Translations under genes and position numbers: made by a program
In this document: in pieces, positions 3,325 to 45,513 of the stretch
How positions within the stretch are numbered: the stretch's first letter is position 1
Layout: each line of letters opens with the position of its first letter
The notes under the pieces: generated by a model
The model's input: the letters and a program-made list of their open reading frames with translations, nothing else
Database searches by the model: none
What the model was told of the DNA's origin: nothing
Assembly: GCA_041674805.1 (NCBI GenBank)
Contig: JBAYVA010000003.1
Coordinates: 91,029-155,028 of the forward strand
Direction: 5' to 3'
DNA: 64,000 nucleotides
DNA from: Candidatus Magasanikiibacteriota bacterium
GTDB taxonomy: Bacteria > Patescibacteriota > Patescibacteriia > Magasanikbacterales > UBA922

Positions 3325-4461
3325 TTATAAATTTTGTAAAAATTCTTTTGCAGTTTTGTCCCAATCAAAATTTTCTAGTAAAAAGTTTTTATCATATTTA
3401 TTTTGTCTATGCAAATTTTTTTTCATAGCTTCTTTCAACTCTGCAACATTGTGAGGATTTACCAAAACGACATTATTATCAACAATTTCCAAAAGAGAAG
3501 AACGATTACTAGTCACTACAGAAACTCCACTAATCATAGCTTCCAAAACAGGAAAACCAAAACCTTCATACAAACTAGGATACAAAAATAATTTAGACAA
3601 TTTGTATAAAGCAGGTTTGTCTAGCGCATCAACATAACCAATATAATGAACTCCTCTAGTTTCATCTATGCTCTTAATAATTTTTTCATATTTCCAACCA
3701 CGATTACCAGCAATTACCAAATTAATTTTTTTATTTATCAAATTTGAATTAGAATAAGCTTGAATAATAGATAAAATATTTTTTCTAGGTTCCAAAGTAC
3801 CAAGAAAAAAAATAAAATTTTCCGGTAAATTATATTTGTTTTTTAAATATGAGACATCTATACTTTTGTCTAAATTATCTAAAAAATTTTTACTAATACC
3901 TGGATAAAGAACTTTTACAAAATTAGGATTACAATGATACATTTCTACCAAATCATTTTTAGTATTTAAAGAAGGAGTAAAAATCAAATGAGCTTGATGA
4001 CAATGTCTCTTTGGATTAATAAGTTTGTGCCACAATAACATTTTTTTGCTAAAACAATGTGGCAAAAATTCAAAACTCAAATCATGAATAGTCAAAATAG
4101 TTTTGACATGTTCAGATAAATTCAGAAAATTCAAATTTGGTGAAAACCAATAATCTATTTTTTCTATTTGTTTTTTGTATATTTTGTAAAAATATTTAGC
4201 AACAAACAAATCCAACTTGATAAATTTCAACAAAATAAATAAATTCAATAATTTATTAGGCCAATTTGTTTTTATCAAAAAAACATTATGGTAATTTACA
4301 AAAGAAAAATCAACTTCATTTTTTTTTAAAGAATTAAAAAACAAAATATAATTATTTGCACTATCTTGTGAAAAAATAGCATCCAAAAGTTCATAAGTAT
4401 ATTCCCCCACTCCAGTGCGTTTTTTTTCAGTCAGACTGCGGATGTCTATTACTATATTCAT
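3325..4461 (-). CDS. Glycosyltransferase family 4
   Basis: EGFGFPVLEAM motif; GT-B size. Confidence 0.8.
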   Translation of the reverse strand: MNIVIDIRSLTEKKRTGVGEYTYELLDAIFSQDSANNYILFFNSLKKNEVDFSFVNYHNVFLIKTNWPNKLLNLFILLKFIKLDLFVAKYFYKIYKKQIEKIDYWFSPNLNFLNLSEHVKTILTIHDLSFEFLPHCFSKKMLLWHKLINPKRHCHQAHLIFTPSLNTKNDLVEMYHCNPNFVKVLYPGISKNFLDNLDKSIDVSYLKNKYNLPENFIFFLGTLEPRKNILSIIQAYSNSNLINKKINLVIAGNRGWKYEKIIKSIDETRGVHYIGYVDALDKPALYKLSKLFLYPSLYEGFGFPVLEAMISGVSVVTSNRSSLLEIVDNNVVLVNPHNVAELKEAMKKNLHRQNKYDKNFLLENFDWDKTAKEFLQNL

Positions 4462-13130: not shown

Positions 13131-14192
13131 TTAATTATTCCCTCCATCCAAAATTTTTAATAAACCTTTATTAATCTTTCTAATAGTCAATGGTCCCCCA
13201 TAAATAAAACCTGTAATCATTTGCAAAGCATCAGCTCCAGCTTGTAACTTTTGATAAGCATCCTCAGCTGTAAAAATACCCCCAACACCAATGATTTTTA
13301 GTTTATCGTGAGCTCGCTCACGAATATGACTAATTATTTTGTTACTTCTATCTTGCAGATGTTTACCAGAAATTCCACCAGGATGATTCAACTGTTCAGC
13401 AGATGATTTAAATTTTTTGACCCAAGATCTATTTTTTATCAGATTAGTTGCCACAATGCCAGTAATCTCATATTTCAAACACAAATCTATCACTTTGTCC
13501 AAATCTTCATAACTCATGTCTGGTCCAATCTTGATGAAAATATCTTTATTAATTTTTCGTTCTTTAACAATATTCATAATTTTCAGCAAAAGTTCTTCTA
13601 TAAAAGAAACTTGAGCAAAGACATCACACTTAGCAACATTTGGACAACTTACATTCAAAGTAATATAATCAGCCAGCTCATACAAATCCAAAAATGAACG
13701 AACATAATCATCTGCCATTTCTTTTCCTTCCAAACCAGTAGTTACCGCAATACTAATACCATAAGGTATATCGCGTTTTTGTAATTTTTCTTTTATTCTT
13801 TTGGCAGCTTCTACACTTCCACAATTAGACAAACCGTAGTAAACAATAAGACCATTATCTTTTGGCAAACGCCATAATCTTGGCTTAGGATTACCAGGTT
13901 GAGCTGAATTAGTGATAGAACCAAGCTCCACAAAACCAAAACCAAGCATAGGATAGGCCAACGGTGCTGTAATATTTTTATCAAAACCGGCTGACAATCC
14001 AACTGGATTTTTCAATTCTAAATTGCCAATTTTTACATGAAGACGTGGATCATCTACAAATAAAAATTTTTTTATTATATTATAAAATGGTGAAAATGAA
14101 CTTACTACTTTCAACATATGTATCACTAAATGATGTATTTTTTCTGGATCAGTTTTGAATAATATTGGTCTGATGATTTTTTTATACAACAT
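13131..14192 (-). CDS. pyrD: Dihydroorotate dehydrogenase (quinone-dependent, class 2-like)
   Basis: MLYKKIIRPILFKTDPEKIHHL N-terminus, NPVGLSAGFDKN, GFGFVELGSIT and the CPN motif. Confidence 0.85.
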   Translation of the reverse strand: MLYKKIIRPILFKTDPEKIHHLVIHMLKVVSSFSPFYNIIKKFLFVDDPRLHVKIGNLELKNPVGLSAGFDKNITAPLAYPMLGFGFVELGSITNSAQPGNPKPRLWRLPKDNGLIVYYGLSNCGSVEAAKRIKEKLQKRDIPYGISIAVTTGLEGKEMADDYVRSFLDLYELADYITLNVSCPNVAKCDVFAQVSFIEELLLKIMNIVKERKINKDIFIKIGPDMSYEDLDKVIDLCLKYEITGIVATNLIKNRSWVKKFKSSAEQLNHPGGISGKHLQDRSNKIISHIRERAHDKLKIIGVGGIFTAEDAYQKLQAGADALQMITGFIYGGPLTIRKINKGLLKILDGGNN

Positions 14193-14284
14193 ATATTATT
14201 AATTCAATGTTTAGTTTTTAATTCTAGTTCTAGAATAGCACGAATATAAAACGAATACCACAAATAAATATTCCCGAAGTTCAC

Positions 14285-23280: not shown

Positions 23281-24858
23281 TTAAATTAGTGAACGTCCCG
23301 TCATTTCCTCAGGTTTATCTATACCCAAAACTTTGAGAATTGTCGGCGCTACATCACCCAACACACCAGACTTAGGCAAAAGACTCAAATCATCATCAGG
23401 TGAATCTCCTACATTACCAGAAATACCAAATAATTTTTCTTGAATAATAATAAAAGGAACATTGTTGTTACTATTTTGTTTATCAAGAGTACCTGTCTTC
23501 ATACTAAGTACTTCTTCAGCACTACCACTGTCTCCAACAATAAATAAAACTCCGTCTTCAGCCAAAACATATTCAGCAATTTTACCAATATATTTGTCCA
23601 AAATTTCACAAGCTTTTATAGTAGCTTGAAAATCACCAGTTTTAGACACACTTTCAGCATTAGAAAAATTGGCCAAGATAAAATCATACTTTTCTGATTT
23701 TATAGCTTTGACAACATCTTTGACAATTGAATTAGCTGCCATTTCAGGAACTTCTTTATATGACAAAACTTTTTTAGAAGGAACAAGTACAAATTCTTCA
23801 TCACCAAATTTGTCTTCAAACATTCCACTAAAAAAAGAAGTAACACAACTATATTTTTCTGTTTCAGCAATTCTGATTTGTCTCATTTCTGCTTTGGACA
23901 AAACTTCTGCCAAAGAATTATGAATGATATTGCGAGGGTAAGCAACCACAACAGGAATTTCTTTTTCGTAATCAGTCATTGTCACAAAAAATAAATTACG
24001 TAAATAAATACGTTCAAATTTTGGAAAAGCTGGCAAAACAAAAGACTTAGTCAATTGTCTAGCAAGTCTAGCTCCAAAATTAGCAAAAATTACAGCATCA
24101 TTTTTTTGAATAAAATTTAATTTAGTTTTACTACCAATCAAAGTAGGTAAAACATCAGCATCGTAAATTTCTTTGTCATAAGATTTTTGAATAGCTTCAA
24201 AAGATGTCTCTTCAATATTCAAAACTTTTTCACCTGTCATGTGATAATAGGCCAAAGAAATTTTGTCCCAATTACGACCATTGTCCAAAGCATAATTTCT
24301 ACCAGAAATACTAACAATTTTACCTATACCTAATTCAGACATTTTAGCTTCTATTTTTTTTATATGATGAATACCATTGTTATAAATATCATCTTCACCA
24401 TCCAAAATAGCATGCACAAAAACTTCTTTTACCTTGTTTTGTTTTGCCACTTGCAATAAAGCAAAAAAATGTTCATCATTGGCATTGTGAATTTGATTCC
24501 CAAATAAAGTAATAATATGTAAATTAGAATTATTTTTTTCAGTATGTTCTATAGCTGACAAAAAAGCATGATTGGAAAAAAACTTACCACTCGCTATAGC
24601 AGCATTTATTCTTGGTAAAATTTTTTTATAAATTCTACCAGAACCAATATTCAAATGACCAACACGAGAATTACCAGCTTCAAAATCCAAAAGTCCCACA
24701 TCTTTACCAGACGCACCAAGACTCATCACTGGATATTGTTGAATAAATTTATCAAAATTTGGAGTATTAGCTTTAAAAATTGCATTGCCAGGTGTATTTG
24801 GTGCAATTCCCCAACCACTCAAAGTAAGTAAAACAGCAGGTTTTGGACGATTCATCAT
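23281..24858 (-). CDS. iPGM-like paralog (alkaline-phosphatase superfamily) with degenerate metal-binding sites; probable pseudoenzyme or altered function
   Basis: Full-length similarity to cofactor-independent phosphoglycerate mutase, including the catalytic Ser in GNSRVGH. Against the neighbouring paralog: the conserved DGxG aspartate is Ser (LSGWG vs ILDGFG); MVGHTGD is SVSKTGD; ADHGNAE is GDSGSAE; NHVPF is NNVPF. The likely real start is the MMNRP methionine, not the extended track start at 24912. Confidence 0.6.
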   Translation of the reverse strand: MMNRPKPAVLLTLSGWGIAPNTPGNAIFKANTPNFDKFIQQYPVMSLGASGKDVGLLDFEAGNSRVGHLNIGSGRIYKKILPRINAAIASGKFFSNHAFLSAIEHTEKNNSNLHIITLFGNQIHNANDEHFFALLQVAKQNKVKEVFVHAILDGEDDIYNNGIHHIKKIEAKMSELGIGKIVSISGRNYALDNGRNWDKISLAYYHMTGEKVLNIEETSFEAIQKSYDKEIYDADVLPTLIGSKTKLNFIQKNDAVIFANFGARLARQLTKSFVLPAFPKFERIYLRNLFFVTMTDYEKEIPVVVAYPRNIIHNSLAEVLSKAEMRQIRIAETEKYSCVTSFFSGMFEDKFGDEEFVLVPSKKVLSYKEVPEMAANSIVKDVVKAIKSEKYDFILANFSNAESVSKTGDFQATIKACEILDKYIGKIAEYVLAEDGVLFIVGDSGSAEEVLSMKTGTLDKQNSNNNVPFIIIQEKLFGISGNVGDSPDDDLSLLPKSGVLGDVAPTILKVLGIDKPEEMTGRSLI

Positions 24859-24950
24859 AATTTTAAATTTAGCAATTTTAAATTTTAATTTGTCCGCCTT
24901 GGGTGGAAACAATTTAAAAATTTTACAATTTCATCCCGATTTTATCAGGA

Positions 24951-26534
24951 CTAAATTAAAGAATGTCCCGTCATTTCATCTGGTTTTTCAATATTCAACA
25001 CTTTCAAAATAGTCGGAGCAATATCTGAAAGTCTACCTTTTTTCAATTTTGTTTTCTTATCATCACTAATCAAAATAAATGGGACATGATTATCAGTATG
25101 AGACGTCATAATCTCCCCAGTCTTTTCATCAAACATCTTTTCAGCATTACCATGATCAGCCGTAATAAATACTATACCATTTTTTGATAAAACACAATCT
25201 ACTACTCTTTTCACCTGATTATCCATATAATTTACCGCTTTTTTAGCTGCTTCAAAATCACCAGTATGCCCGACCATGTCAGCGTTAGGATAATTTACTG
25301 TAATAAAATTGTAAGTATTATTTTCTAAATAATTTATAATAATATTAGTAATTTCTTGTGCATGCATTTCTGGTTTATCAGCATATGAATAATGTGCACC
25401 AGATTTTATCATAAGTCTTTTTTCACCATTAATAGGTTCTGAATAACCACCATTCATAAAATAAGTAACATGCGCGTATTTTTCAGTTTCAGAAATATAT
25501 AATTGATTATAATTTTCACCAATTGCTTTGGCCAAACAATTTTTAAAATCTGGACTTGGAAAAGCTGTAAAAATTCCTGGTAAATCTGGACCAAAATCTG
25601 TCATAGCCACAAAACGAATATTTTTTGGTAATTTGTTTCTTTTAAACGCACCTGGATTCATCTTTTGAAAATTTTCCTGAACTAAAGACTTGGTAATTTG
25701 TCTAGCTCTATCACTTCTGGCATTGAAAAAATAAATAACATCATTATCTTCAATGTTACCCACAGGTTTTCCACCTTCAACAATAACTGTGGGTAAAATG
25801 TATTCATCAGTTTCATCTCTATTATAAGCTTGAGAAATTGCTTCTTCAGCACTTTCAGCTTGTAAACCAACACCCGAGACCATAGCATCATAAGCTTGTT
25901 TAGTTCTACTCCACATTTTGTTTCTATCCATACCATAAAATCTACCCATAATCGTCGCAATTTTTTCACCATTTTTCATATTCTTACGCAAAAGACGCAA
26001 AAAATTTACAGCACCATGAGTAGAAGAATCACGACCATCTGTAAACAAATGTAAAAAAACTTTTTTATGTCCTTGCTTACGAAAATATTCTAATAAAGAA
26101 TAAATATGTTCTGGATTAGAATGAGCACTTTGACCATCAGTCAAAAGTCCCATCAAATGAACAGAACTATTATATTTTTTGGCATGATAAAGAGCATGAC
26201 GAAATGAGTCATTTTTGAAAAAAGTTCCATCTTTGATAGCATGCGTAATTCGCACCAAATCTTGCTCAACTACTCTACCCGCGCCAATATTCAAATGTCC
26301 TGCTTCAGAATTTCCTTCTTGATTAGGAAAAAGACCAACATCCAAACCACTAGCTATAAGTTGAGTATTAGAATAATCTTTTATATAAGAAAAAATATTT
26401 GGTGCTGTCTCTGGTGTAATTGCATTACCAACATTTTTGAAATCAGCCAAACCAAAACCATCGAGGATCATGAAGACAACTGGCTTGTTTTTTTTATTGA
26501 TTTCTTCGTTTTGTAGGTTTAATTCTTTTGACAT
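24951..26534 (-). CDS. gpmI: 2,3-bisphosphoglycerate-independent phosphoglycerate mutase
   Basis: ILDGFG, GNSEAGH (catalytic Ser), NADMVGHTGD, TADHGNAE and NHVPF are all intact. Confidence 0.85.
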   Translation of the reverse strand: MSKELNLQNEEINKKNKPVVFMILDGFGLADFKNVGNAITPETAPNIFSYIKDYSNTQLIASGLDVGLFPNQEGNSEAGHLNIGAGRVVEQDLVRITHAIKDGTFFKNDSFRHALYHAKKYNSSVHLMGLLTDGQSAHSNPEHIYSLLEYFRKQGHKKVFLHLFTDGRDSSTHGAVNFLRLLRKNMKNGEKIATIMGRFYGMDRNKMWSRTKQAYDAMVSGVGLQAESAEEAISQAYNRDETDEYILPTVIVEGGKPVGNIEDNDVIYFFNARSDRARQITKSLVQENFQKMNPGAFKRNKLPKNIRFVAMTDFGPDLPGIFTAFPSPDFKNCLAKAIGENYNQLYISETEKYAHVTYFMNGGYSEPINGEKRLMIKSGAHYSYADKPEMHAQEITNIIINYLENNTYNFITVNYPNADMVGHTGDFEAAKKAVNYMDNQVKRVVDCVLSKNGIVFITADHGNAEKMFDEKTGEIMTSHTDNHVPFILISDDKKTKLKKGRLSDIAPTILKVLNIEKPDEMTGHSLI

Positions 26535-36463: not shown

Positions 36464-37918
36464 ATGAAAAAACTATTTTTACTTTTAATGTTTGGTTTTT
36501 TATTTTTTCCAAACACCTCCCAAGCTTTTGACCAAAGATGTTGGGTAAAAGAAGACTGTGACAATTACCGTGCTTCTTTTGGTAACGTAGAAGCAGAAGA
36601 AGGTTTTTATAGTGCTGCCAAAAATTCTGATGCCAAAAGTATTTGTAAAACTAATGAAAATGGTAAAGATGTCTTAGGTAGAGACATTGGATTATGTCTA
36701 CCTGTTGGCAAAAGTGTTACCAATATAAGTTTTGGAGGCAGAAATGAATTCACTAATATTGGTGATTTTTTAAAATTCTTTTATCAATATGGTTTTGTAG
36801 TAGCCTCTGTCGTAGCTGTAATAATCATCATCGTATCTGGCATCATGTACATTTATTCTGGTGGCAATTCAGATACAGTCGGACAAGCTAAGAAAAAAAT
36901 TTTTGGAGCGGTCATCGGACTAGTTTTATTGGCTTTTGCCTATACTCTCTTAAATAATATCAATCCTTATTTAGTAAACTTACGTATGCCTGGTATTTGG
37001 GCTATAAATACTATGGGTATAGCTCCAGCAAGATGTGAACAATTGGACAAAAATTTAAAAGTTGGTTTAGCAACAACACCCACAACAGCTGTTCCTTATG
37101 ATCAAACAACATGGTTTTTACCAAGTAACACAACGCCTACAATTTGTGGTAATGACTACTATGTAGATAAAACAAATGGACAATTTTGTGAAGGAAATGC
37201 TTGTACACAAAAAAATTACTTATGTTTTAAAGGAATTAATGATCAATTAAGTTCATGCCAAACTGGTAAAATACTAGGACAAGTTTATTCTACTAGTATT
37301 CTAGATAATGCTTTTGGTCAAAAAGGAGGTTTAAATAGTTTAGCTATAGATGTTTTTTTTGATTATTGGGGTTGGATATGGTCAGATGATGTTGAAGTAT
37401 GGATAATGTGTGGGGAAAAACAAACTAATGGATCTGTGACAGGTGAAAAAAATGTAGAAAGAAATGGTATTGATGATGACGATGGTATTGAGATAAATAT
37501 AGATGAAGTAAAAAAAAGACAACAATTTATTTTAAACTATAACGAAACTCAATTAAATGATTTAATTAATGAATGTGACGATCAAAAATATTTAGGATTT
37601 GCTATAGGATTTAATTTAAATACAGCAGCAAATGGAACAGATGTACAACACCTAATAGGATTAGACGAAAACAAAAATCCTATTGATTTATGTGATATGC
37701 CAGATAAAGGAGTTGGTGGAAATTGGGATGAAACTTTTTGTGAAAATCTAGCACATACAATCAAACCTGGTATACCAAAAGAATACTGGATTACAAAAGA
37801 ACAAATGATGGAAGGATTTGTAATGAATCTAGATGTATCAAAAATACCTTCAATATCTACAGATGAAACAAAAAGAGAAAGAGCTTATGCTAAATGGGGA
37901 TACAAAGCACCAAAATAA
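36464..37918 (+). CDS. Secreted/membrane Cys-rich hypothetical protein with a pilin-like double-TM hairpin
   Basis: Signal peptide ([21 protein letters not shown]). Two adjacent hydrophobic helices separated by [13 protein letters not shown], which is VirB2/TrbC-like topology. Then about 300 aa with more than 15 Cys and acidic patches. Confidence 0.35.
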
Positions 37919-37932
37919 AAATTAAAACAAAT

Positions 37933-40761
37933 ATGCAAGATAAAATAAAAGTAATAAACGCTCGAGTACACAATTTAAAAAATGTCTCAGTCGAAATACC
38001 AAAAAATAAATTAACAATTATCACTGGTTTATCTGGTTCTGGTAAATCATCACTCGCTTTTGACACTATTTATGCAGAAGGTCAAAGACGCTATGCTGAA
38101 AGTCTAAATGCTTATGCCAGACAATTCATGGATATGCAAGACAAACCAGATGTAGACGAAATCCAAGGTCTCTCCCCTACTATTGCTATCAACCAAAGAA
38201 ATTTTGCCAAAAATCCCCGCTCTACTGTTGGCACAACTACCGAAATTTATGATTACTTGCGTCTGCTTTTTGCTCGCATCGGCAAGCAATGGTGTCCAAC
38301 TTGTAATATCCCTGTAGAATTTTTTAACTCAGGAAAAATCATTGAAGAAATTAGAAAATTAAAGAAAAAAAATTCTGAACTTTTTTTGTTGTCACCAATT
38401 TTACGCCAACAAAAAGTAAATCTAAAAAATTTAAAAATAAAAATAGAAAAAACTGGTTATAGTAATTTTCTGATCAATAGCGTCAACGTCTCTATCGCCA
38501 ATCTAAAAAATTTCAAATTCAATTCAGATTATTTGTACGATATAGATATTGTCATCGAAAGATTGAGTCAAATTTCTCTTAGTGATCTTACCAAACATGT
38601 AGAAAAAGCATTAGACTATTCCAATGGCTTTGTCAAAATTTATGATGAAGACAAAGATGAAACAATTACCTACTCCCAAGTACCAATGTGTAGTCAATGT
38701 TCTCGTGTATTTGAACCAGTTGAACCTCGCACTTTTAGTTTCAATAGTCCTTATGGAGCTTGTCCTCGTTGTACAGGTCTTGGCAGAACTCTAGAAGTAG
38801 ATACCGAACTTGTCATACCAAATCCAAAACTAACAATTGAAGAAGGCGCTATCCAACCTTGGACCAGACTTGTTGGTAACCAAATTTACTATCAAGAACT
38901 TATTGCCAAAGTAGCCGAAGCTCACAATTTTTCAGTAGACATACCAGTAGAACAATTACCAAAAAAAGTAATTGATATAATTTTTTATGGTACGGAAAAA
39001 CAAGAATACGAAATAAATGGTAAAAAAACAATTTATGAAGGTGTCGTACCTCATTTAACCAACAAATATCTTACTAGTAAATCAGAATACATCAAAAAAG
39101 AAATAGAAAGTTACATGCACGAAAAAGCTTGTTCTATTTGTGATAAAAAAAGATTGAAAAAAGAAAGTTTATATGTAAAAATTTCAGATTTTAGTATTGC
39201 CGATATTGTAGAAATGAGTATTGGCGAAGCTCTAACTTTTTTCAAAGATATAGAAAAAGGTAAATCAGAACTCACCAAAAAATTAGAAGAAAAACAAATA
39301 GAAGTAGCGGTATCTATTTCCAAAGAAATACGTCGTCGTCTTGATCATATAGAAAAAGTAGGTTTGTCTTATTTAACATTGGATAGATCTGTTAGTACTC
39401 TTTCTGGTGGTGAATCACAAAGAGTAAGATTGTCAACTCAATTGTCTGCAGGCTTATCTGGAATTATCTATATCTTGGACGAACCATCTATTGGTTTACA
39501 TCCAAAAGACAATGCCAAACTAATAGAAACTTTGAAATCTCTAAGAGACTCTGGTAATACTGTCATCGTCGTAGAACACGATCAAGCTATTATGGAAGCC
39601 GCTGACTATCTTATTGACATTGGTCCTGGCGCCGGTGAATACGGCGGTCAAATCATGGCTTCTGGCACAGCTGAACAAGTCAAAAAAGACAACAAATCCA
39701 TGACCGGACGTTATTTAAGTAAAAAAGAAAAAATAGATATTCCCAAAAAACCTCGCAAAGGCAATGGCAAAGATATACGTATAGAAGGTGCAACTGCCAA
39801 CAACTTAAAAAATATTGACGTGAGTATTCCACTAGGTAAATTGGTGAGTATTACTGGTGTTTCTGGTTCTGGAAAATCTACTCTTATCTTAGATATTTTG
39901 AGCAAAGAATTAGCCAAAAAATTCTACCGTGCCAAAGATGAACCAGGTGATCACAAGACTATCAAAGGATTGAATAATATAGACAAAGTCATTACTATTG
40001 ACCAAACTCCTATCGGACGTACCCCTCGCAGTAATCCTGCTACATACACTGGGATATTTACTCTCATTCGTGATTTGTTTGCTGAATTACCAGAATCAAA
40101 AATGTTAAGTTATAGTGCTGGTACTTTTAGTTTCAATGTCAAAGGTGATGGACGTTGTGAAGCTTGTGGAGGTGAAGGTTATGTAACTATTCCAATGCAT
40201 TTTTTGAATGATGTTTATGTAGAATGTAGTGAATGTCATGGTACTCGCTATACTCGTGACGTTCTTGAAATCCATCACAAAGACAAAAATATTGCTGAAA
40301 TATTAAATATGACTGTAGAAGAAAGTTACAAATTTTTTATGCATGACAAAAATATTGCTGAAAAATTACAAGTCTTACGCAATGTAGGCTTAGGTTACTT
40401 ACAACTTGGTCAACCAGCTACCACTCTCTCTGGTGGTGAGGCGCAACGTATCAAACTAGCGACTGAATTGTCTCGTCGTTCAACTGGCAAAACTCTTTAC
40501 ATTCTTGATGAACCAAGTACTGGTTTGCACTTTGAAGACATCAAAAAACTTTTACACGTTTTAAATCAACTGGTAGACAAAGGCAATACTGTGCTTATCA
40601 TCGAACACAATTTGGATATTATCAAATCAAGTGACTGGATAATAGATTTAGGTCCTGAAGGTGGCAAAGCTGGCGGTGAAGTAGTTGCTGAAGGTACAGT
40701 AGAAGACGTCATCAAAGTAAAAAAGAGTTGGACTGGAAAGTATTTGAAGGGAGTGGTGTAA
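37933..40761 (+). CDS. uvrA: Excinuclease ABC subunit A
   Basis: Two ABC ATPase modules ([22 protein letters not shown]) and zinc-finger CxxC motifs. Start reassigned to [17 protein letters not shown]. Confidence 0.95.
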
Positions 40762-40879: not shown

Positions 40880-41719
40880 ATGCCAGAAGAAAGTTTACTT
40901 AAAAAAAATGATGCAATAACCTTTTTAAATATTAATGAGGGAGAGTTCAAAAACTATAGTACTTTTAGCAATGAAATAGAAGGAGTAAAAATTAAAGGGC
41001 GATGGTATTTTGATAAGGAAAAACTTAATATATGGAAACAATTAAAAAAAGAAAGGACAATAAATTTATCAATAAAAGAATACGAAACTTGTTTTGAGTT
41101 TGCTATAAAAATGGTTTATGGCGGACTTTCTTTAAATGGAATAAGAGGACAAAGAACAGAAGTTCAAGCTGCTGATGATATAATACTTGGAATATTAGCC
41201 GAACATGCAATCAAAAAATTTCTATACAATAAGTTTTCAATTGATATAAAATTAGACGAATCTGTACATCCAAAAGAAATCACACCTCAAGATTTTGACA
41301 TGATTAAAGATGGTAAAGAATTTAGAATACCAAATCTTGGAGTAGGTATAAAAGCAAGTAAAATAAAAAATGCTTTTTTAGTTTTAGGTTCAAATGAAGT
41401 GGAATTACCTGAAAGAAAAAGTGATGTATATATATTTGCAAGAGTTGGTTTACCAAGTGATCATTTATTTAGAATATTAAGAGATCATTCATTCTTTGGA
41501 AAAGTTAGAAAATTTCTTGATGAAAATATAAATTTTAAAAAAATACTAGAATTAAACACAATTCCAGTTTGGATCTGTGGTTTTGCTTATGTAAATGAAC
41601 TTGAACGAGTAACAGAAATACCAAATCAAAAATTCACTAAGGGCCATAGATATGTAAAAGCTGTTGGTAAACTTCATAACTCTGATACAGAATGGCAAAA
41701 TTTTCTTCAAAAATTATAA
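40880..41719 (+). CDS. Hypothetical protein; candidate restriction endonuclease partner of the adjacent C5-MTase
   Basis: No recognisable family. Call rests only on convergent position immediately next to the methyltransferase gene. Confidence 0.2.
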   Translation: MPEESLLKKNDAITFLNINEGEFKNYSTFSNEIEGVKIKGRWYFDKEKLNIWKQLKKERTINLSIKEYETCFEFAIKMVYGGLSLNGIRGQRTEVQAADDIILGILAEHAIKKFLYNKFSIDIKLDESVHPKEITPQDFDMIKDGKEFRIPNLGVGIKASKIKNAFLVLGSNEVELPERKSDVYIFARVGLPSDHLFRILRDHSFFGKVRKFLDENINFKKILELNTIPVWICGFAYVNELERVTEIPNQKFTKGHRYVKAVGKLHNSDTEWQNFLQKL

Positions 41720-41721
41720 AA

Positions 41722-43290
41722 TTACTCAATCGCTCTTCTAATCTGTTTTGCGACAGCTTTGACAACAGGAACACTCACAGAATTACCAAATTGTTTATAA
41801 AGAGCTGAATCAGACATACCTTTTGGAAGTTTAAAATCCATTGGAAAACCTTGTATTCTAGCACATTCAAGAGGAGTCAGTTTTCTGATTCCTTTTTTAT
41901 CTTTAATAATTGGTACATTATGTCCACCCATTCCCATATTTGCTGTCAAAGTAGGACAAACACCTTTTTTATTTTCACGAACGTATTTTCTACGCCATTG
42001 ATATACAGTATTTGAATTTGTAACATCACCTTTTATCTTTTCATAAAGAGGTTTACCATCATAATAATATTTTTCATCCACATTATCTTCTAACAAATCT
42101 TTTATACTTTTTTTCAATTTTATTGTGGGTGGAAAATTAAATTTTTCATAATGTTTTTTGTCTCTAAAACCAACAATATAAATTCTTTCTCTATTTTGTG
42201 GCACATTACCATATTCCATACTATTCAAAACTTTTGATTTTACATGATAGCCAAGAGATTCCAAAGTATCCAATATAATTCTAAAAGTTTTTCCATTATC
42301 ATGATTTTTCAAATTTTTTACATTTTCAAGCATGAAACCCATTGGTTTTTTTTCTTTTATAATTCTTGCAACATCAAAAAATAAGTTTCCCCTACCTTTC
42401 TTATCATCAAACCCTTCTCTATATCCTGCAATAGAAAACGCCTGGCAAGGAAACCCTCCAAGCAAAAAATCAAAATCTGGTAGTTTTTTTTCATTTACTT
42501 TTTGAATGTCTTCTACAAAAAGTTGAATTCCATCAAAATTTAAGTCATAAGTGTCTTTACACTTTGGTTCAAAATCATTTGCAAACACAGTTTCAAACCC
42601 AGCTTCTTCAAAACCAAGTCTTATTCCACCAACACCTGCAAACAAATCAATAGTTTTGAAGTTTTTTGTTTTTTGTTGTAATTGACTATTGAAATCCCTA
42701 ATTATTTTTACAACAACACCACGAACTTCTACTTCTGTACGATAAAATGGAAGCAAATTTTGATTTGCTGGTTGTAATTTGAATCTATTTTTCTCTTTGT
42801 ATAACTTTTTTAAAGTTGCTTCATTTTCATCTACGATAGCAACTACTGTTTGTCCATTATCTGCATAATCTTGTTTCTTTATTACCACAATATCACCATC
42901 GAAAATACCATCTTCAATCATACTGTCACCAGAAACTTTCAAAGCATACAATTGTTCAGGATCAAAATAAGTATCTCTCGCAATAGTGATAGTATCTCCT
43001 CTAGTTTCTAATGCTTCAATTGGTTGACCAGCAGTAATTGTGCCAACAAGTGGAATTTCTAAAGTATCAATTTTACCAAGTTCTCTAATACTAAGGCCTC
43101 TTGTAGCATTTTCATCCCGCATAATATAACCTTTATCAATAAGTGCGTCTACATGTTGATATACACCAGACAGAGCATTAAGTTTAAAATTTTTTTTCAA
43201 CTCTTCAAAAGTAGGAGAATAACCTTTTTTTTCTATAAAAGATTTTATGTAATCAAAAATTTGTTTTTGTCTCTTAGTTAAACTAGGCAT
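41722..43290 (-). CDS. LexA-like repressor (wHTH + S24 peptidase) fused to a DNA (cytosine-5)-methyltransferase
   Basis: Residues 1-200 align to LexA along its length. LTKRQKQIFDYI matches LTARQQEVFDLI. IPLVGTITAGQPI carries the Ala-Gly self-cleavage site. LKVSGDSMIEDGIFDGDIVVIKK carries the catalytic Ser. VVAIVDENEATLKKL carries the catalytic Lys. The C-terminus has C5-MTase motifs: I DLFAGVGGIRLGF, IV GGFPCQAFSIAG, VI ENV, X QFGNSVSVPV. Confidence 0.8.
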   Translation of the reverse strand: MPSLTKRQKQIFDYIKSFIEKKGYSPTFEELKKNFKLNALSGVYQHVDALIDKGYIMRDENATRGLSIRELGKIDTLEIPLVGTITAGQPIEALETRGDTITIARDTYFDPEQLYALKVSGDSMIEDGIFDGDIVVIKKQDYADNGQTVVAIVDENEATLKKLYKEKNRFKLQPANQNLLPFYRTEVEVRGVVVKIIRDFNSQLQQKTKNFKTIDLFAGVGGIRLGFEEAGFETVFANDFEPKCKDTYDLNFDGIQLFVEDIQKVNEKKLPDFDFLLGGFPCQAFSIAGYREGFDDKKGRGNLFFDVARIIKEKKPMGFMLENVKNLKNHDNGKTFRIILDTLESLGYHVKSKVLNSMEYGNVPQNRERIYIVGFRDKKHYEKFNFPPTIKLKKSIKDLLEDNVDEKYYYDGKPLYEKIKGDVTNSNTVYQWRRKYVRENKKGVCPTLTANMGMGGHNVPIIKDKKGIRKLTPLECARIQGFPMDFKLPKGMSDSALYKQFGNSVSVPVVKAVAKQIRRAIE

Positions 43291-43401
43291 AAGACTATTG
43301 ACTATTTAATTAATTTAGGTATATAATATCATTATACCGAAAATTAACAGAATTTAAAAGCTATCTTTATCCACAGTTTAAATTAACAAAAGAATAGACA
43401 T

Positions 43402-44808
43402 ATGATTAAAAAAGAGGAGATAGATTTAAAAGTCAAAGAATTTAAAATTCACAGATCAAATGTAGAACGTGACTATATCTTTGGATGGTTTCTTTTTGGA
43501 TTATTCACAATAAGTGATCTAAAAGAAAATATTTTTTTAAAAGGAGGTAATGCATTACGTAAGTGCTACTTTGAAAACACACGTTTTTCTTCGGATATAG
43601 ACTTAGGAATACCTGGGGACATTAATCAAGAAATATTAATGACAGAAATAAACAAAGTATGTGACTTTATACAAAATAAAACAAAGATACTATTTTCAAA
43701 AGAAGAAAATCGTATTGATGAAAAATTTTCAGCAACTGATGCCCCAATACCTGATCTAAAAGTCTACGAAGTAAGAATATATTTCAAAGACTTTTATGGA
43801 GATGCAGATCATTTAAAAATAAAAATATCAATGGACATAACTAGATTTGACAAAGTCTTACTACCAATTCAAAACTTAGATTTAATACACCCATATTCTG
43901 ATAAAAATCAGTTAAACTGTAAAATCAGATGCATGAAGCTGGAAGAAATAATAGCAACAAAACTTAAATGTATTCTACAAAGGCAACATGCCCCTGATTT
44001 ATTTGACTATGTCTATTCAATAAAACTACCTGAGAGTACTCTCAATAGAAAAGAACTAATTCAAACTTTTATCAAAAAAACAATATTTTCTAAAAACCCA
44101 CACGTAGTTAAAGAAATACTAATTAAAACACAATTCAAATATTTTAAAGAAATGTGGACTAAAACTATTATCTGTGCAAAATCTATTATGTTTGATGTAG
44201 AAGGAGCAATAGAAACTTTTATTTCTGATATGGAAGAAATATTTAAAATTTATCCCAATAGTGGATTACGAAATTTTACTTTTTTCGAAGCTACTTTAAG
44301 ATTACCGATAATGGAAGCCGGAAGAGCACAAACTCTGTTGAAAGTAACTTACAAAAATGAAGAACGAATATTAGAACCATACTCATTAAAGTATAAAGAA
44401 AGAAAAGATGGTACAGAATGGGAATATTTATACGCTTATAAATTAAACGGTGGAAAAAGTGAACCAGGCATAAGAAGTTTTCTTGCAAAAGACTTTCAGT
44501 CCATAGAGAATACAGAAAAAAAATTTACACCACAATATCAAATTGAACTATGTAAAGCTGGTGAAATACCAGAAAAAAAATACCTTTTTGACCAAAATAA
44601 ACCAGCCAAAAGACCAAAATTAAAAAACATTTTTAATTCTTATCTAGGTAAAATCAAAAATGAAATCCGATACATTTATGAATGTAATTATTGTGGAAAA
44701 AAATTTACAAAAAATAAAAATACCCCCATTATTAGAAAGCATAAAACAAAAGGTGGATATCTTTGCAATAGTGTTTATGGATATTATATAGATACAAAAT
44801 ATTATTAA
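43402..44808 (+). CDS. AbiEii/AbiGii-family nucleotidyltransferase (type IV toxin-like) with a C-terminal Cys-cluster extension
   Basis: N-terminal VERDYIFGWFLFGLF...FLKGGNALRKCYFENTRFSSDIDL matches the DUF1814/AbiEii signature. 468 aa, versus roughly 300 typical. C-terminal CNYCGKKF...LCN. Confidence 0.65.
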   Translation: MIKKEEIDLKVKEFKIHRSNVERDYIFGWFLFGLFTISDLKENIFLKGGNALRKCYFENTRFSSDIDLGIPGDINQEILMTEINKVCDFIQNKTKILFSKEENRIDEKFSATDAPIPDLKVYEVRIYFKDFYGDADHLKIKISMDITRFDKVLLPIQNLDLIHPYSDKNQLNCKIRCMKLEEIIATKLKCILQRQHAPDLFDYVYSIKLPESTLNRKELIQTFIKKTIFSKNPHVVKEILIKTQFKYFKEMWTKTIICAKSIMFDVEGAIETFISDMEEIFKIYPNSGLRNFTFFEATLRLPIMEAGRAQTLLKVTYKNEERILEPYSLKYKERKDGTEWEYLYAYKLNGGKSEPGIRSFLAKDFQSIENTEKKFTPQYQIELCKAGEIPEKKYLFDQNKPAKRPKLKNIFNSYLGKIKNEIRYIYECNYCGKKFTKNKNTPIIRKHKTKGGYLCNSVYGYYIDTKYY

Positions 44809-44895: not shown

Positions 44896-45513
44896 ATGGA
44901 AAAAAATTATTTAGAAAAAAATATAAAACATTTTAGTCGACGTGAATTTTTTTATCAATTTTTACTTGCTTTAGTTCCCTACTATTTGGGAGTAAAAATT
45001 GGAGTAAAGCAGAGTTGGGGTAATCTTATGATTGGCATTCTACTAGGTTTTATTGTGGTTATTTTTTTATATCTACGTGATCATAGTGTCAAAAATCTTA
45101 AAAATTATACAAAAGGATTGAAACTAGAAAAACAACTACAGAAAAAATTAGACACAATGAATATCACCTATGAAAAAAATCTTAAGACAAACAATGGTGA
45201 TTTAGATTTATTAATCCAAAAAAATAATAATTATTATGGTATAGAAATCAAAAATTGGTCTGGTACTGTCGAATGGAAAAATAACCTTCTTATGTCTGGG
45301 ATATATGACAAGACAGACATATTGAAAAAATTGTTGGGCAGTTGTCTTTTTATAAAAAATAGTAAATTTGGTGAAAATCCAAAAATATTTGTAAAACCTG
45401 TCCTTGTCTTTGGCTACGAAACCAACTTAAAAATACCAAACAACAAAATCATATTCCACAATATAGAAATACTCATATTTAGCATACAAGATTTACCACA
45501 AAATTTAAATTAA
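44896..45513 (+). CDS. Membrane-anchored NERD-like / PD-(D/E)xK nuclease-fold protein
   Basis: Two N-terminal TM helices. GDLDLLIQKNNNYYGIEIKNW gives D...E-I-K spacing typical of NERD/PD-(D/E)xK. Confidence 0.45.
   Translation: MEKNYLEKNIKHFSRREFFYQFLLALVPYYLGVKIGVKQSWGNLMIGILLGFIVVIFLYLRDHSVKNLKNYTKGLKLEKQLQKKLDTMNITYEKNLKTNNGDLDLLIQKNNNYYGIEIKNWSGTVEWKNNLLMSGIYDKTDILKKLLGSCLFIKNSKFGENPKIFVKPVLVFGYETNLKIPNNKIIFHNIEILIFSIQDLPQNLN

What the first reader, a model, noticed from the sequence alone, without database searches (positions are those of the whole stretch)
41722..43290. Complete LexA repressor fused in-frame to a C5 cytosine DNA methyltransferase
Residues 1 to about 200 are a full LexA, not just an HTH. 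They include the winged HTH, the Ala-Gly autocleavage site (ITAGQP), and the Ser/Lys dyad of the S24 peptidase (VSGDSM...ATLKKL). The C-terminal half carries canonical Dcm-type motifs I, IV (PCQ), VI (ENV) and X. Known regulatory MTases (SsoII-type) carry only a short HTH. A self-cleaving SOS sensor attached to a modification enzyme would couple methylation, or control of the putative convergent restriction endonuclease at 40880..41719, to DNA-damage signalling. On RecA*-stimulated cleavage the DNA-binding domain would detach from a peptidase-MTase body. The gene sits immediately after uvrA, a classic SOS-regulon member.
Basis: partly seen in the sequence, partly recalled or inferred. Interest (0 to 1): 0.85.

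Follow-up and report, generated by a model that had tools for sequence, protein, structure and literature searches.

The report
Self-cleaving LexA repressor fused to restriction-modification methylase
A candidate-phylum bacterium makes one protein that joins a complete DNA-damage sensor/repressor (LexA) to the protective methylase of a restriction-modification system, and related bacteria attach the same module to every class of DNA methylase, which suggests an undescribed link between DNA damage and self-protection against one's own restriction enzyme.

Summary
Window 41722..43290 (-) is one 522-aa ORF. Residues 1-200 score as full-length LexA above NCBI's equivalog cut-off, and 211-518 as a complete HhaI-like C5 methylase. 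It is not an assembly artefact: at least 120 protein clusters from independent assemblies share the architecture, with Ala-Gly, Ser and Lys invariant.

The convergent 279-aa neighbour has a PD-(D/E)XK nuclease fold and matches a Type II REase model. All 36 related fused loci with downstream sequence carry a convergent gene there, from seven unrelated families including Bsp6I-like and NgoFVII-like.

The promoter carries a direct-repeat LexA box (TTCNG-N6-TTCGG) between -35 and -10. The same box type sits in two standalone lexA promoters, one from Shapirobacteria. The window's only exact DnaA box lies just upstream.

The closest LexA relatives are mostly fusions to C5, N4/N6, Dam-like or gamma-class DNA methylases.

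Best reading: an SsoII-like self-repressing methylase whose repressor is SOS-cleavable. Cleavage and its effect are inferred. uvrA adjacency is coincidental. I found no paper describing this. Untested: whether the genome also has a standalone lexA.

The parts
41722..43290 (-). LexA-C5 methylase fusion gene, 522 aa, stop codon included
   Evidence: One ORF. Three Pfam domains. Exact protein P0001 lies on a 743,922-bp contig.
43096..43290 (-). LexA winged-HTH DNA-binding domain (residues 1-65)
   Evidence: PF01726, 1.2e-16. The recognition helix covaries with the operator class.
43027..43032 (-). Codons for Ala87-Gly88, the LexA-type autocleavage site
   Evidence: 119 of 120 (one gap); 41 of 41 in distant fusions. 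Low pLDDT at 88-97 in the model, as expected for a loop.
42709..43053 (-). Peptidase S24 domain (residues 80-194). Ser123 codon at 42922..42924 and Lys161 codon at 42808..42810.
   Evidence: PF00717, 1.2e-28. S123 and K161 in 120 of 120.
42661..42708 (-). Variable inter-domain linker (residues 195-210)
   Evidence: 33% mean identity and 12-22 residues long in relatives; pLDDT below 50 at 200-208.
41737..42660 (-). C5 cytosine DNA methylase domain (residues 211-518). Catalytic Cys282 codon at 42445..42447.
   Evidence: PF00145 3.8e-98, TIGR00675 359.7 bits, M.HhaI is the closest solved structure.
43337..43352 (-). LexA box, a direct repeat TTCTG-N6-TTCGG with period 11, filling the promoter spacer and abutting the -10
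   Evidence: TTCGG-N6-TTCGG, exact or with one mismatch, lies at -8 to -65 (mostly -52 to -65) of 32 fused loci, and is never near unfused orthologues. The same box type is in two standalone lexA promoters, L171 (Shapirobacteria) and L172.
43331..43358 (-). Putative promoter of the fusion gene: TTTAAA-16-TATAAT
   Evidence: 10 of 12 matches. The position is conserved in relatives.
43367..43375 (+). Exact DnaA-box consensus TTATCCACA, just upstream of the -35
   Evidence: the only exact copy in 64 kb; exact in 20 of 38 cassettes against 0.0047 expected per 160 nt; 0 of 45 unfused methylase promoters and 0 of 5 standalone lexA promoter regions.
43298..43327 (+). Opposite-strand promoter TTGACT-18-TATAAT. 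It overlaps the 5' leader of the fusion gene and points across the LexA box towards the AbiEii-like gene.
   Evidence: 11 of 12 matches; at least 10 of 12 matches in 10 of 38 cassettes, against 1.45% of control windows.
40880..41719 (+). Convergent 279-aa putative Type II restriction endonuclease: N-terminal excisionase-like wHTH plus a PD-(D/E)XK core. Its stop lies 2 nt from the methylase stop.

Best explanation
The gene encodes the methylase of a Type II restriction-modification module. The module sits in a small defence island of a Candidatus Magasanikbacteria genome.

Its N-terminal 200 residues are a working LexA. As a dimer, LexA would bind the direct-repeat LexA box between the -35 and -10 of the gene's own promoter. 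That keeps methylase synthesis low and proportional to methylase already present. This is the logic of SsoII/Ecl18kI/EcoRII-type 'methylase-repressor' fusions.

The repressor here keeps an intact LexA autocleavage site and Ser/Lys dyad. Activated RecA filament, formed on single-stranded DNA after damage, would therefore cut it at Ala87-Gly88. Such damage includes breaks made by the module's own endonuclease at under-methylated sites.

Cleavage would release the DNA-binding domain and derepress the promoter, so methylase output rises. The endonuclease gene is convergent, with stops 2 nt apart and no terminator for methylase transcripts. Stronger methylase transcription would therefore also run antisense into the endonuclease gene.

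The net effect would be a damage-induced shift towards modification. This would be a Type II counterpart of restriction alleviation, and a safe-establishment device after transfer.

A conserved DnaA box next to the promoter suggests a second input from the replication initiator.

Shown computationally: the domains, the conserved catalytic residues, the restriction-modification context and the operator architecture. Inferred: DNA binding, RecA-dependent cleavage, derepression, antisense interference, the DnaA input and the protective role.
For: 1. Full LexA plus full C5 methylase in one ORF.

2. All three domains are under constraint across at least 120 clusters: mean identity to the query is 0.58 (wHTH), 0.71 (S24) and 0.78 (MTase). 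Ala-Gly, Ser and Lys are invariant.

3. Restriction-modification context:
- 36 of 36 fused loci with downstream sequence have a convergent ORF starting -22 to +66 nt from the stop.
- These ORFs fall into seven families, including RE_Bsp6I, RE_NgoFVII_C and PDDEXK_5.
- PADLOC REase_II scores are 9e-29 and 4e-110 for two of them.

4. Operator:
- TTCGG-N6-TTCGG, exact or with one mismatch, lies in the promoter spacer of 32 fused loci. Most other fused loci carry variant repeats (TTCTA, TTCGA, TTCGT).
- It is absent near unfused orthologues.
- Variant repeats track changes in the recognition helix.
- The same box in the same promoter position occurs at two standalone lexA genes, L171 and L172.
- LexA direct-repeat motifs are established, and the literature cites Patescibacteria among the lineages that have them.

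5. Generality:
- Of 58 longer-than-standalone representatives among the 150 closest LexA relatives, all keep the wHTH and S24 domains.
- Their C-terminal parts include N6_N4_Mtase (30), Eco57I-type or N6_Mtase (7 and 5), D12 class (5) and C5 (3). No non-methylase enzyme domain was seen.
- The N6_N4 family has the same promoter cassette and a convergent partner gene.

6. Variants with the wHTH but no S24 domain exist. The protease domain can therefore be lost, so its retention with intact catalytic residues argues that cleavage is used.

7. No terminator for methylase transcripts was found between the convergent genes.
Against: - No experiment shows DNA binding, cleavage or methylation.
- Only 64 kb of a roughly 744-kb contig is visible, so I cannot say whether a standalone lexA or recA exists in this genome.
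- The first half-site of the window's own box is degenerate (TTCTG).
- After cleavage the methylase stays attached to the S24 domain. In E. coli the LexA fragments are degraded by ClpXP and Lon (my own knowledge), so methylase activity could fall rather than rise.
- The fused protein shares its box type with standalone LexA, so the host LexA alone could be the real regulator.
- The antisense-interference step rests only on gene geometry.
- Counts across loci are not phylogenetically independent.
Confidence: 0.6

Rival explanations
1. The fusion is the organism's one and only LexA, the master SOS repressor. The methylase is an appendage that the SOS regulator carries, so the main function is global SOS control rather than restriction-modification control.
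For: It scores as the lexA equivalog over its full length. NCBI names relatives 'transcriptional repressor LexA'. Its box type is the same as at standalone lexA promoters. No second lexA is present in the 64-kb window or in any fetched locus.
Against: - The distribution is patchy: about 36 species genomes in the one scan of 185,579 species genomes.
- The neighbourhoods are variable and defence-island-like.
- Endonuclease partners are swapped between close relatives.
- The LexA module is fused to four methylase classes.
- Operator specificity has diversified, which is hard for a regulator with many targets.
- No box precedes uvrA, and the window holds no boxes beyond chance.
- Standalone LexA exists in Patescibacteria.
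Confidence: 0.2
2. The LexA module serves only as a DNA-binding and dimerising autorepressor, exactly like the SsoII N-terminal domain. Self-cleavage plays no physiological part.
For: Dual-function methylase repressors without any protease are well known. Relatives with a LexA wHTH but no S24 domain exist and presumably work. No cleavage data exist.
Against: The cleavage-site Ala-Gly and the Ser/Lys dyad are invariant in 120 of 120 close fusions and 41 of 41 distant ones. Dimerisation alone would not require them. The S24 domain is conserved at 71% mean identity.
Confidence: 0.12
3. Cleavage destabilises the methylase. DNA damage or phage-induced RecA activation then lowers modification while the endonuclease persists, and the cell is killed. 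This would be an SOS-triggered suicide or abortive-infection switch.
For: In E. coli both LexA cleavage fragments become protease substrates (my own knowledge). The sequence just before the cut (ITA here, IAA in most relatives) resembles the VAA end that marks the E. coli fragment. The module lies in defence islands beside abortive-infection genes: AbiEii in the window and CBASS in L003.
Against: Derepression of the promoter would at the same time raise synthesis. A positive feedback loop (breaks, then RecA activation, then less methylase, then more breaks) would make any transient damage lethal, which is costly for a chromosomal module in a minimal genome. Nothing in the sequence marks the S24-methylase fragment as unstable.
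Confidence: 0.08

Closest known systems
Dual-function methylase repressors of Type II restriction-modification systems (M.SsoII, M.Ecl18kI, M.EcoRII, M.MspI, M.ScrFIA)
   Same: A C5 methylase with an N-terminal DNA-binding domain that binds an operator in its own promoter, so that expression is tied to the amount of methylase (review PMC12707154). An overlapping opposite-strand promoter is present here too.
   Different: - Those carry a short HTH region only. This one carries a complete LexA with a self-cleaving S24 protease domain.
- In SsoII and Ecl18kI the R gene is divergent and shares the regulatory region. Here R is convergent at the far end and has no LexA box.
- The operator here is a direct repeat of LexA type, and a DnaA box is part of the cassette.
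LexA, the SOS repressor (TIGR00498; peptidase family S24)
   Same: The whole protein is present: wHTH, hinge with Ala-Gly, and Ser/Lys dyad. It has an autoregulatory box in its own promoter, of the same direct-repeat type as at standalone lexA promoters, one of them from Patescibacteria.
   Different: It carries a roughly 310-residue DNA methylase at the C-terminus. It sits in a mobile restriction-modification module. No evidence was found of a regulon beyond its own promoter.
M.HhaI-like C5 methylases, including the unfused orthologues next to Bsp6I-like and NgoFVII-like endonucleases
   Same: All catalytic motifs are present, and M.HhaI is the closest solved structure. Unfused orthologues at 64-74% identity occur in other Patescibacteria and in DPANN archaea, and at 51-58% in Firmicutes and in viral contigs.
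   Different: The unfused orthologues lack the LexA module, the LexA box and the DnaA box. Their endonuclease gene is often co-directional.
C-protein (controller) regulated restriction-modification systems
   Same: A dedicated transcription factor times R against M expression. Several relatives also have an HTH_3 C-protein gene in front of the endonuclease.
   Different: The window's module has no C gene. The regulator here is fused to M and is predicted to respond to DNA damage.
Restriction alleviation of Type I systems after DNA damage (ClpXP degradation of HsdR)
   Same: The proposed outcome is the same: less self-restriction when unmodified sites arise during repair or after transfer (PMC12707154).
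   Different: The known mechanism is proteolysis of the restriction subunit of Type I enzymes. Here the mechanism would be transcriptional, through a cleavable repressor fused to a Type II methylase.

Membership tests
LexA (TIGR00498 / peptidase S24) | N-terminal LexA-type winged HTH domain | tested here: met
   PF01726 over residues 1-65, 1.2e-16.
LexA (TIGR00498 / peptidase S24) | Full-length match above the curated equivalog cut-off | tested here: met
   183.5 bits against 110.95, model positions 1-202 of 203.
LexA (TIGR00498 / peptidase S24) | Ala-Gly cleavage site and Ser/Lys catalytic dyad | tested here: met
   A87-G88, S123 and K161 are invariant in 120 relatives and in 41 of 41 distant fusions.
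LexA (TIGR00498 / peptidase S24) | Autoregulatory LexA box in its own promoter | tested here: met
   A direct repeat lies in the spacer and abuts the -10. It is conserved across fused loci and shared with two standalone lexA promoters. Binding itself was not tested.
LexA (TIGR00498 / peptidase S24) | Controls an SOS regulon (boxes at recA, uvr or polymerase genes) | tested here: inconclusive
   No box at uvrA, and no excess of boxes in the 64-kb window. The rest of the genome is not visible.
LexA (TIGR00498 / peptidase S24) | RecA-filament-stimulated autocleavage | not testable with these tools
   Needs biochemistry.
C5 cytosine DNA methylase (PF00145 / TIGR00675) | Conserved motifs I (FxGxG), IV (PCQ), VI (ENV), VIII (QxRxR) and X (GNS) in canonical order | tested here: met
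   All are invariant in the family.
C5 cytosine DNA methylase (PF00145 / TIGR00675) | Defined target sequence and methyl transfer | not testable with these tools
   GCNGC or GCSGC is only inferred, from Bsp6I-like and NgoFVII-like partners in relatives. Counts of these sites in the window are uninformative.
Type II restriction-modification system | Methylase gene adjacent to a restriction endonuclease gene | tested here: met
Type II restriction-modification system | Canonical PD-(D/E)XK catalytic residues in the endonuclease | tested here: inconclusive
   The fold matches. Invariant D138 and K158 are present, but the acidic residue of the (D/E)XK triad is Gly156 in the alignment. The acid may come from elsewhere.
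Type II restriction-modification system | R and M act on the same DNA sequence | not testable with these tools
   Needs enzymology or a methylome.
SsoII/Ecl18kI-type dual-function methylase repressor | DNA-binding domain fused N-terminally to the methylase, with an operator in its own promoter | tested here: met
SsoII/Ecl18kI-type dual-function methylase repressor | Short HTH region homologous to the SsoII N-terminal domain | tested here: not met
   The N-terminal part is a complete LexA with an S24 protease domain.
SsoII/Ecl18kI-type dual-function methylase repressor | Divergent R gene sharing the regulatory region | tested here: not met
   R is convergent in all 36 fused loci with downstream sequence.

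The most novel reading that the evidence does not exclude
LexA-methylase fusions define a portable control cassette: a DnaA box, a direct-repeat LexA box and a cleavable LexA. Patescibacteria have attached this cassette to every chemical class of DNA methylase. It would give Type II restriction-modification systems a RecA-sensed feedback, so that self-inflicted or external DNA damage raises modification and lowers restriction. It would also time methylase synthesis to replication through DnaA. Because the box is the same as the host's SOS box, these mobile modules would both listen to and interfere with the host SOS regulon. In genomes without a standalone lexA they may have replaced it.
Probability: 0.35. 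Interest if true: 0.9.

Novelty: new variant of a known kind. Interest (0 to 1): 0.78.

Why it matters
How Type II restriction-modification systems avoid killing their host is an open question. It arises whenever repair, recombination or transfer creates unmodified sites. Damage-induced restriction alleviation is known only for Type I enzymes.

A methylase whose own repressor is cut by the cell's DNA-damage signal would be a simple, testable answer. It would also be the first case I could find of regulated proteolysis built into a methylase-repressor.

The pattern is broad: hundreds of protein clusters, four methylase classes and a conserved promoter cassette. It occurs in Patescibacteria, which are reported to depend largely on restriction-modification rather than CRISPR for defence (my own knowledge). 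The conserved DnaA box adds a possible link between replication initiation and methylase supply.

Practically, these proteins are now annotated either as 'LexA' or as 'methyltransferase'. That can mislead both SOS-regulon reconstructions and restriction-modification censuses in candidate phyla.

Tried and rejected
- **Frameshift or misassembly joining two genes.** Rejected. The same architecture occurs in at least 120 clusters from independent assemblies and about 36 species genomes.
- **Functional link to uvrA.** Rejected. Neighbours are not conserved. uvrA follows directly on an upstream gene, with no box. Its real start is probably 37934.
- **Inferring the methylase target from site avoidance.** GCNGC, GCGC and similar sites are not depleted in the 64 kb. 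Uninformative at 30.6% GC.
- **A second lexA.** None in the window or in any locus. The rest of the contig cannot be read with these tools.
- **Extra LexA boxes in the window.** Counts are at or below chance. The exact TTCGT-N6-TTCGT at 14240..14255, upstream of a dihydroorotate dehydrogenase gene, is not distinguishable from chance.
- **Phage origin.** The best 80 viral-contig matches are unfused methylases only.
- **A LexA box at endonuclease promoters.** None seen.
- **Structure prediction of the endonuclease from locus-derived homologues.** Repeated with database homologues.
- **Literature.** Nine searches and a 2025 review gave no description of a LexA-methylase fusion. The 2017 Patescibacteria SOS paper (Sanchez-Osuna, Barbe, Erill, Environ Microbiol) is not held, so I cannot exclude that it mentions such proteins.
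Full report
**1. The observation**

Window 41722..43290 on the minus strand is one uninterrupted ATG-initiated ORF of 522 codons. Pfam places three domains on it:
- LexA_DNA_bind on residues 1-65 (1.2e-16)
- Peptidase_S24 on 80-194 (1.2e-28)
- DNA_methylase on 211-518 (3.8e-98)

NCBIfam's lexA equivalog model matches residues 1-200 end to end, at 183.5 bits against a cut-off of 110.95. The dcm model scores 359.7 bits. Against solved structures, the C-terminal half is closest to M.HhaI (2e-65) and the N-terminal half to Thermotoga LexA (8e-34). No solved chain covers both halves.

- The N-terminus is LexA, not a generic HTH.
- Ser and Lys are present.
- The junction is not an assembly accident.

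On the last point, the exact protein and at least 120 clusters at 65-95% identity, from JGI, ENA, NCBI and Logan assemblies, share the three-domain architecture over 100% of the length. About 36 species-representative genomes encode it full length. Named sources are Parcubacteria, Moranii-, Giovannoni-, Nomura-, Uhr-, Staskawicz- and Paceibacteria. The window's own neighbour gene is annotated in a Candidatus Magasanikbacteria MAG.

**2. Selection on each part**

In the 120 relatives A87, G88, S123 and K161 are invariant (A87 and G88 in 119 of 120, the remaining sequence having a gap there). So are FAGxGG, PCQ, ENV, QNRER and GNS.

Mean identity to the query by region:

| Region | Mean identity |
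|---|---|
| wHTH | 0.58 |
| S24 domain | 0.71 |
| Methylase | 0.78 |
| Hinge | 0.27 |
| Inter-domain linker | 0.33 |

The linker varies from 12 to 22 residues. The AlphaFold model (pLDDT 79.5) gives three folded domains, with low confidence exactly at the cleavage loop (88-97) and the linker (200-208).

**3. It is the methylase of a restriction-modification module**

The convergent ORF 40880..41719 ends 2 nt from the methylase stop. It has no Pfam match, but several lines point to an endonuclease:
- It hits a PADLOC Type II REase model at 2.1e-10.
- It belongs to a family of 344 'hypothetical' proteins.
- It folds with pLDDT 87.7 into an N-terminal excisionase-like wHTH plus a PD-(D/E)XK core.

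In all 36 related fused loci with downstream sequence, a convergent ORF starts -22 to +66 nt from the methylase stop. These ORFs fall into seven unrelated families:
- Bsp6I-like (14 loci)
- a 354-417-aa family (7 loci)
- PDDEXK_5 (5 loci)
- the 277-279-aa family of the window (4 loci plus the window)
- a 349-aa family (2 loci)
- a 271-277-aa family (2 loci)
- NgoFVII-like (2 loci)

Pfam and PADLOC confirm the named ones.

A neighbour-joining tree of the methylase domains puts the fused proteins in essentially one clade. Endonuclease types are intermixed within it, even between sister taxa. The window's closest relative, at 81% identity, has a Bsp6I-like partner. The LexA-methylase is therefore the stable unit and the endonuclease is exchanged.

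Bsp6I cuts GCNGC and NgoFVII cuts GCSGC (my own knowledge of these enzymes). Because the target-recognition region is about 76% conserved, GC(N/S)GC is the likely target. This is inference only, and site counts in the window say nothing.

The neighbourhoods are variable defence islands:
- AbiEii-like and NERD genes in the window
- CBASS, MazE and Fic in L003
- a SocA/Panacea toxin-antitoxin pair in L005

The uvrA adjacency is therefore coincidental.

**4. The promoter cassette**

Upstream of the fused genes the intergenic DNA is conserved across species whose proteins are only about 65% identical. The order of elements is:
- a DnaA-box consensus (TGTGGATAA on the coding strand)
- a -35 (TTGnnn)
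- a direct repeat (T)TTCGGT-N4-(G/T)TTCGGT with period 11, filling the spacer
- a TATAAT

In the window these are at 43367..43375 (DnaA box), 43353..43358 (-35), 43337..43352 (repeat TTCTG-N6-TTCGG) and 43331..43336 (-10).

TTCGG-N6-TTCGG, exact or with one mismatch, lies at -8 to -65 (mostly -52 to -65) of 32 fused loci. It is never near the unfused orthologues.

Some lineages carry TTCTA, TTCGA or TTCGT repeats instead. The recognition helix changes with them: A[VL]S[TG][VI][HY][QE]H in the TTCGG class against SVS[TS]AH[HY]Y in the TTCTA class.

Two standalone lexA genes close to the module have the same repeat in the same promoter position:
- Shapirobacteria: TTGAC-TTCGGGTATTGTTCGCG-TATCAT
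- a second, of unknown taxon: TTTTCGGCTGATTTACGG-TATAAT

Direct-repeat LexA boxes are established (GTTC-N7-GTTC in Alphaproteobacteria). The Erill group cites its Patescibacteria study among the lineages where LexA evolved a direct-repeat motif.

So the repeat is a LexA box of the host type, placed where a bound dimer would exclude RNA polymerase. Binding itself is inferred.

**5. The DnaA box**

TTATCCACA occurs exactly once in the 64-kb window, at this promoter.

| Set of upstream regions (160 nt) | Exact box | Box with at most 1 mismatch |
|---|---|---|
| 38 non-redundant LexA-methylase cassettes | 20 | 28 |
| Background expectation per 160 nt | 0.0047 | 0.063 |
| 45 unfused methylase promoters | 0 | 1 |
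| 5 standalone lexA promoter regions | 0 | 0 |

The box stays constant while the LexA box varies, and it sometimes changes position or orientation. That points to a host factor with universal specificity, most simply DnaA. Its effect, activation or repression, is unknown.

**6. A second, opposite-strand promoter**

TTGACT-18-TATAAT at 43298..43327 lies in the leader of the fusion gene, back to back with its promoter. It points across the LexA box towards the AbiEii-like gene at 43402.

Promoters with at least 10 of 12 matches occupy this position in 10 of 38 cassettes, against 1.45% of control windows. Many more read TTGnnn-17-TACAAT.

This recalls the mutually exclusive overlapping promoters of Ecl18kI and AhdI. 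Here, however, it does not drive the endonuclease, and what it drives differs between loci.

**7. Generality**

I searched the LexA half against 1.84 billion cluster representatives. Most of the roughly 60 closest relatives are not standalone LexA but LexA with a C-terminal extension, 270-890 aa in total. Standalone LexA of about 200 aa appears from roughly 44-48% identity, in Shapirobacteria and Clostridiales.

All 58 longer-than-standalone representatives keep the wHTH and S24 domains. Their other domains are:
- N6_N4_Mtase in 30
- Eco57I-type in 7 and N6_Mtase in 5
- D12 (Dam-like) in 5
- C5 in 3
- no non-methylase enzyme domain in any

Ala-Gly, Ser and Lys are intact in 41 of 41 representatives of at least 380 aa.

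The LexA-N6_N4 family has more than 100 clusters, again in Patescibacteria. Its gene order is LexA-M1, M2, then a convergent 393-435-aa gene, which a C-protein gene precedes in two of the four loci. It carries the same DnaA-box, direct-repeat and -10 cassette.

Some relatives have lost the S24 domain and keep only the LexA wHTH on the methylase (P0512, P0515, P0517).

**8. Mechanism**

The best-supported reading is a dual-function methylase repressor of the SsoII/Ecl18kI/EcoRII kind, in which the repressor is a complete, cleavable LexA. The strict conservation of the cleavage machinery argues that cleavage is used, especially because lineages exist that dropped the domain.

Cleavage would free the promoter. 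The endonuclease gene is convergent and no terminator stops methylase transcripts. More methylase transcription should therefore also oppose endonuclease expression.

The signal, RecA filament, is produced by exactly the lesions that an unbalanced restriction-modification system makes. Restriction-modification imbalance is known to induce SOS (PMC3874152). This closes a negative feedback loop and mimics the damage-induced restriction alleviation known for Type I systems.

My rough confidence by step:
- about 0.85 that the protein autorepresses through the repeat
- about 0.6 that RecA-dependent cleavage derepresses it
- about 0.4 that the net role is protective

Rivals:
- It is the sole, global LexA (0.2).
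- Cleavage is not used (0.12).
- Cleavage destabilises the methylase and makes the module an SOS-triggered suicide switch (0.08).

**9. Novelty**

The proteins are in public databases, auto-named 'transcriptional repressor LexA', 'SOS regulatory protein LexA' or 'DNA (cytosine-5)-methyltransferase 1'. Nine full-text searches found no paper describing a LexA-methylase fusion.

A 270,000-character 2025 review of restriction-modification biology does not contain the word LexA. The one paper that might mention it, the 2017 Patescibacteria SOS study, is not in the library.

I file it as a new variant of a known kind. The parts and the 'methylase-repressor' idea are known. New are the following:
- the cleavable LexA as the repressor
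- the DnaA-box and LexA-box cassette
- the spread of the module over all methylase classes

**10. Limits**

Everything is computational. Only 64 kb of the genome is visible. Counts over loci share ancestry. The methylase target and the endonuclease activity are inferred.

Noticed in passing
window 43367..43375; also L001-L036 and L167-L170 upstream regions: An exact DnaA-box consensus (TTATCCACA) is part of the LexA-methylase promoter cassette. It is exact in 20 of 38 cassettes, 0 of 45 unfused methylase promoters and 0 of 5 standalone lexA promoter regions. It is the only exact copy in the 64-kb window.
   Followed up: yes
window 43298..43327 (+): A strong opposite-strand promoter (TTGACT-18-TATAAT) lies in the leader of the fusion gene, back to back with its promoter. 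It reads across the LexA box towards the AbiEii-like gene. A promoter in this position is enriched across relatives (10 of 38 against 1.45% of controls), but its downstream target differs between loci.
   Followed up: partly
window 43402..44808 and 44896..45513: A 468-aa AbiEii-like nucleotidyltransferase (PADLOC 5.6e-47) has a long C-terminal extension and no AbiEi partner gene beside it. A NERD-domain protein follows. Together with the restriction-modification pair they form a small defence island with slightly lower GC (26-29%). The LexA box lies at about +2 to +19 of the predicted AbiEii transcript.
   Followed up: partly
L044 5260..6975 and L045 5260..6975: In Gribaldobacteria-type MAGs the same methylase family is fused to a RadC-like JAB domain plus UPF0758_N (571 aa) instead of LexA. 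This is another repair-associated N-terminal module on the same enzyme.
   Followed up: partly
L028 3347..4114 (-) and 4169..4184: A DpnI-family methyl-directed endonuclease gene (PF06044, 1.2e-78) lies divergent from a LexA-methylase gene. Its own promoter has a LexA-type direct repeat (TTCGT-N6-TTCGT abutting TATAAT) of a different specificity class from the neighbouring fusion's box (TTCTA).
   Followed up: partly
L001-L036, downstream of the fused genes: Endonuclease genes from seven unrelated families replace one another next to a conserved LexA-methylase, even between sister taxa. Several loci add an HTH_3 C-protein gene in front of the endonuclease (L005, L014, L015, L018, L020, L031, L032).
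   Followed up: partly
proteins P0512, P0515, P0517: Relatives of the LexA-N6_N4 methylases keep the LexA winged HTH but lack the S24 protease domain. One example is a 363-aa Daviesbacteria 'adenine-specific DNA methylase'. These could be intermediates between LexA fusions and SsoII-like short-HTH methylases.
   Followed up: no
window 14240..14255 (-): An exact TTCGT-N6-TTCGT direct repeat lies in the intergenic region upstream of a dihydroorotate dehydrogenase gene (13131..14192). The overall count of such patterns in the window is at chance level, so it may mean nothing.
   Followed up: partly
window 37894..37960: The longest uvrA ORF starts at 37894 and overlaps the upstream gene by 25 nt. 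The conserved UvrA N-terminus ([10 protein letters not shown]...) starts at the ATG at 37934, which is probably the real start.
   Followed up: no
window 23281..24912 and 24951..26534 (-): Two adjacent paralogous genes for cofactor-independent phosphoglycerate mutase (iPGM_N plus Metalloenzyme) lie in tandem, next to enolase.
   Followed up: no
window 36464..37918 (+): A 484-aa protein with a type IV secretion pilin-like segment (PF18895, 5e-7) and a Cys-rich extracellular part lies directly upstream of uvrA.
   Followed up: no
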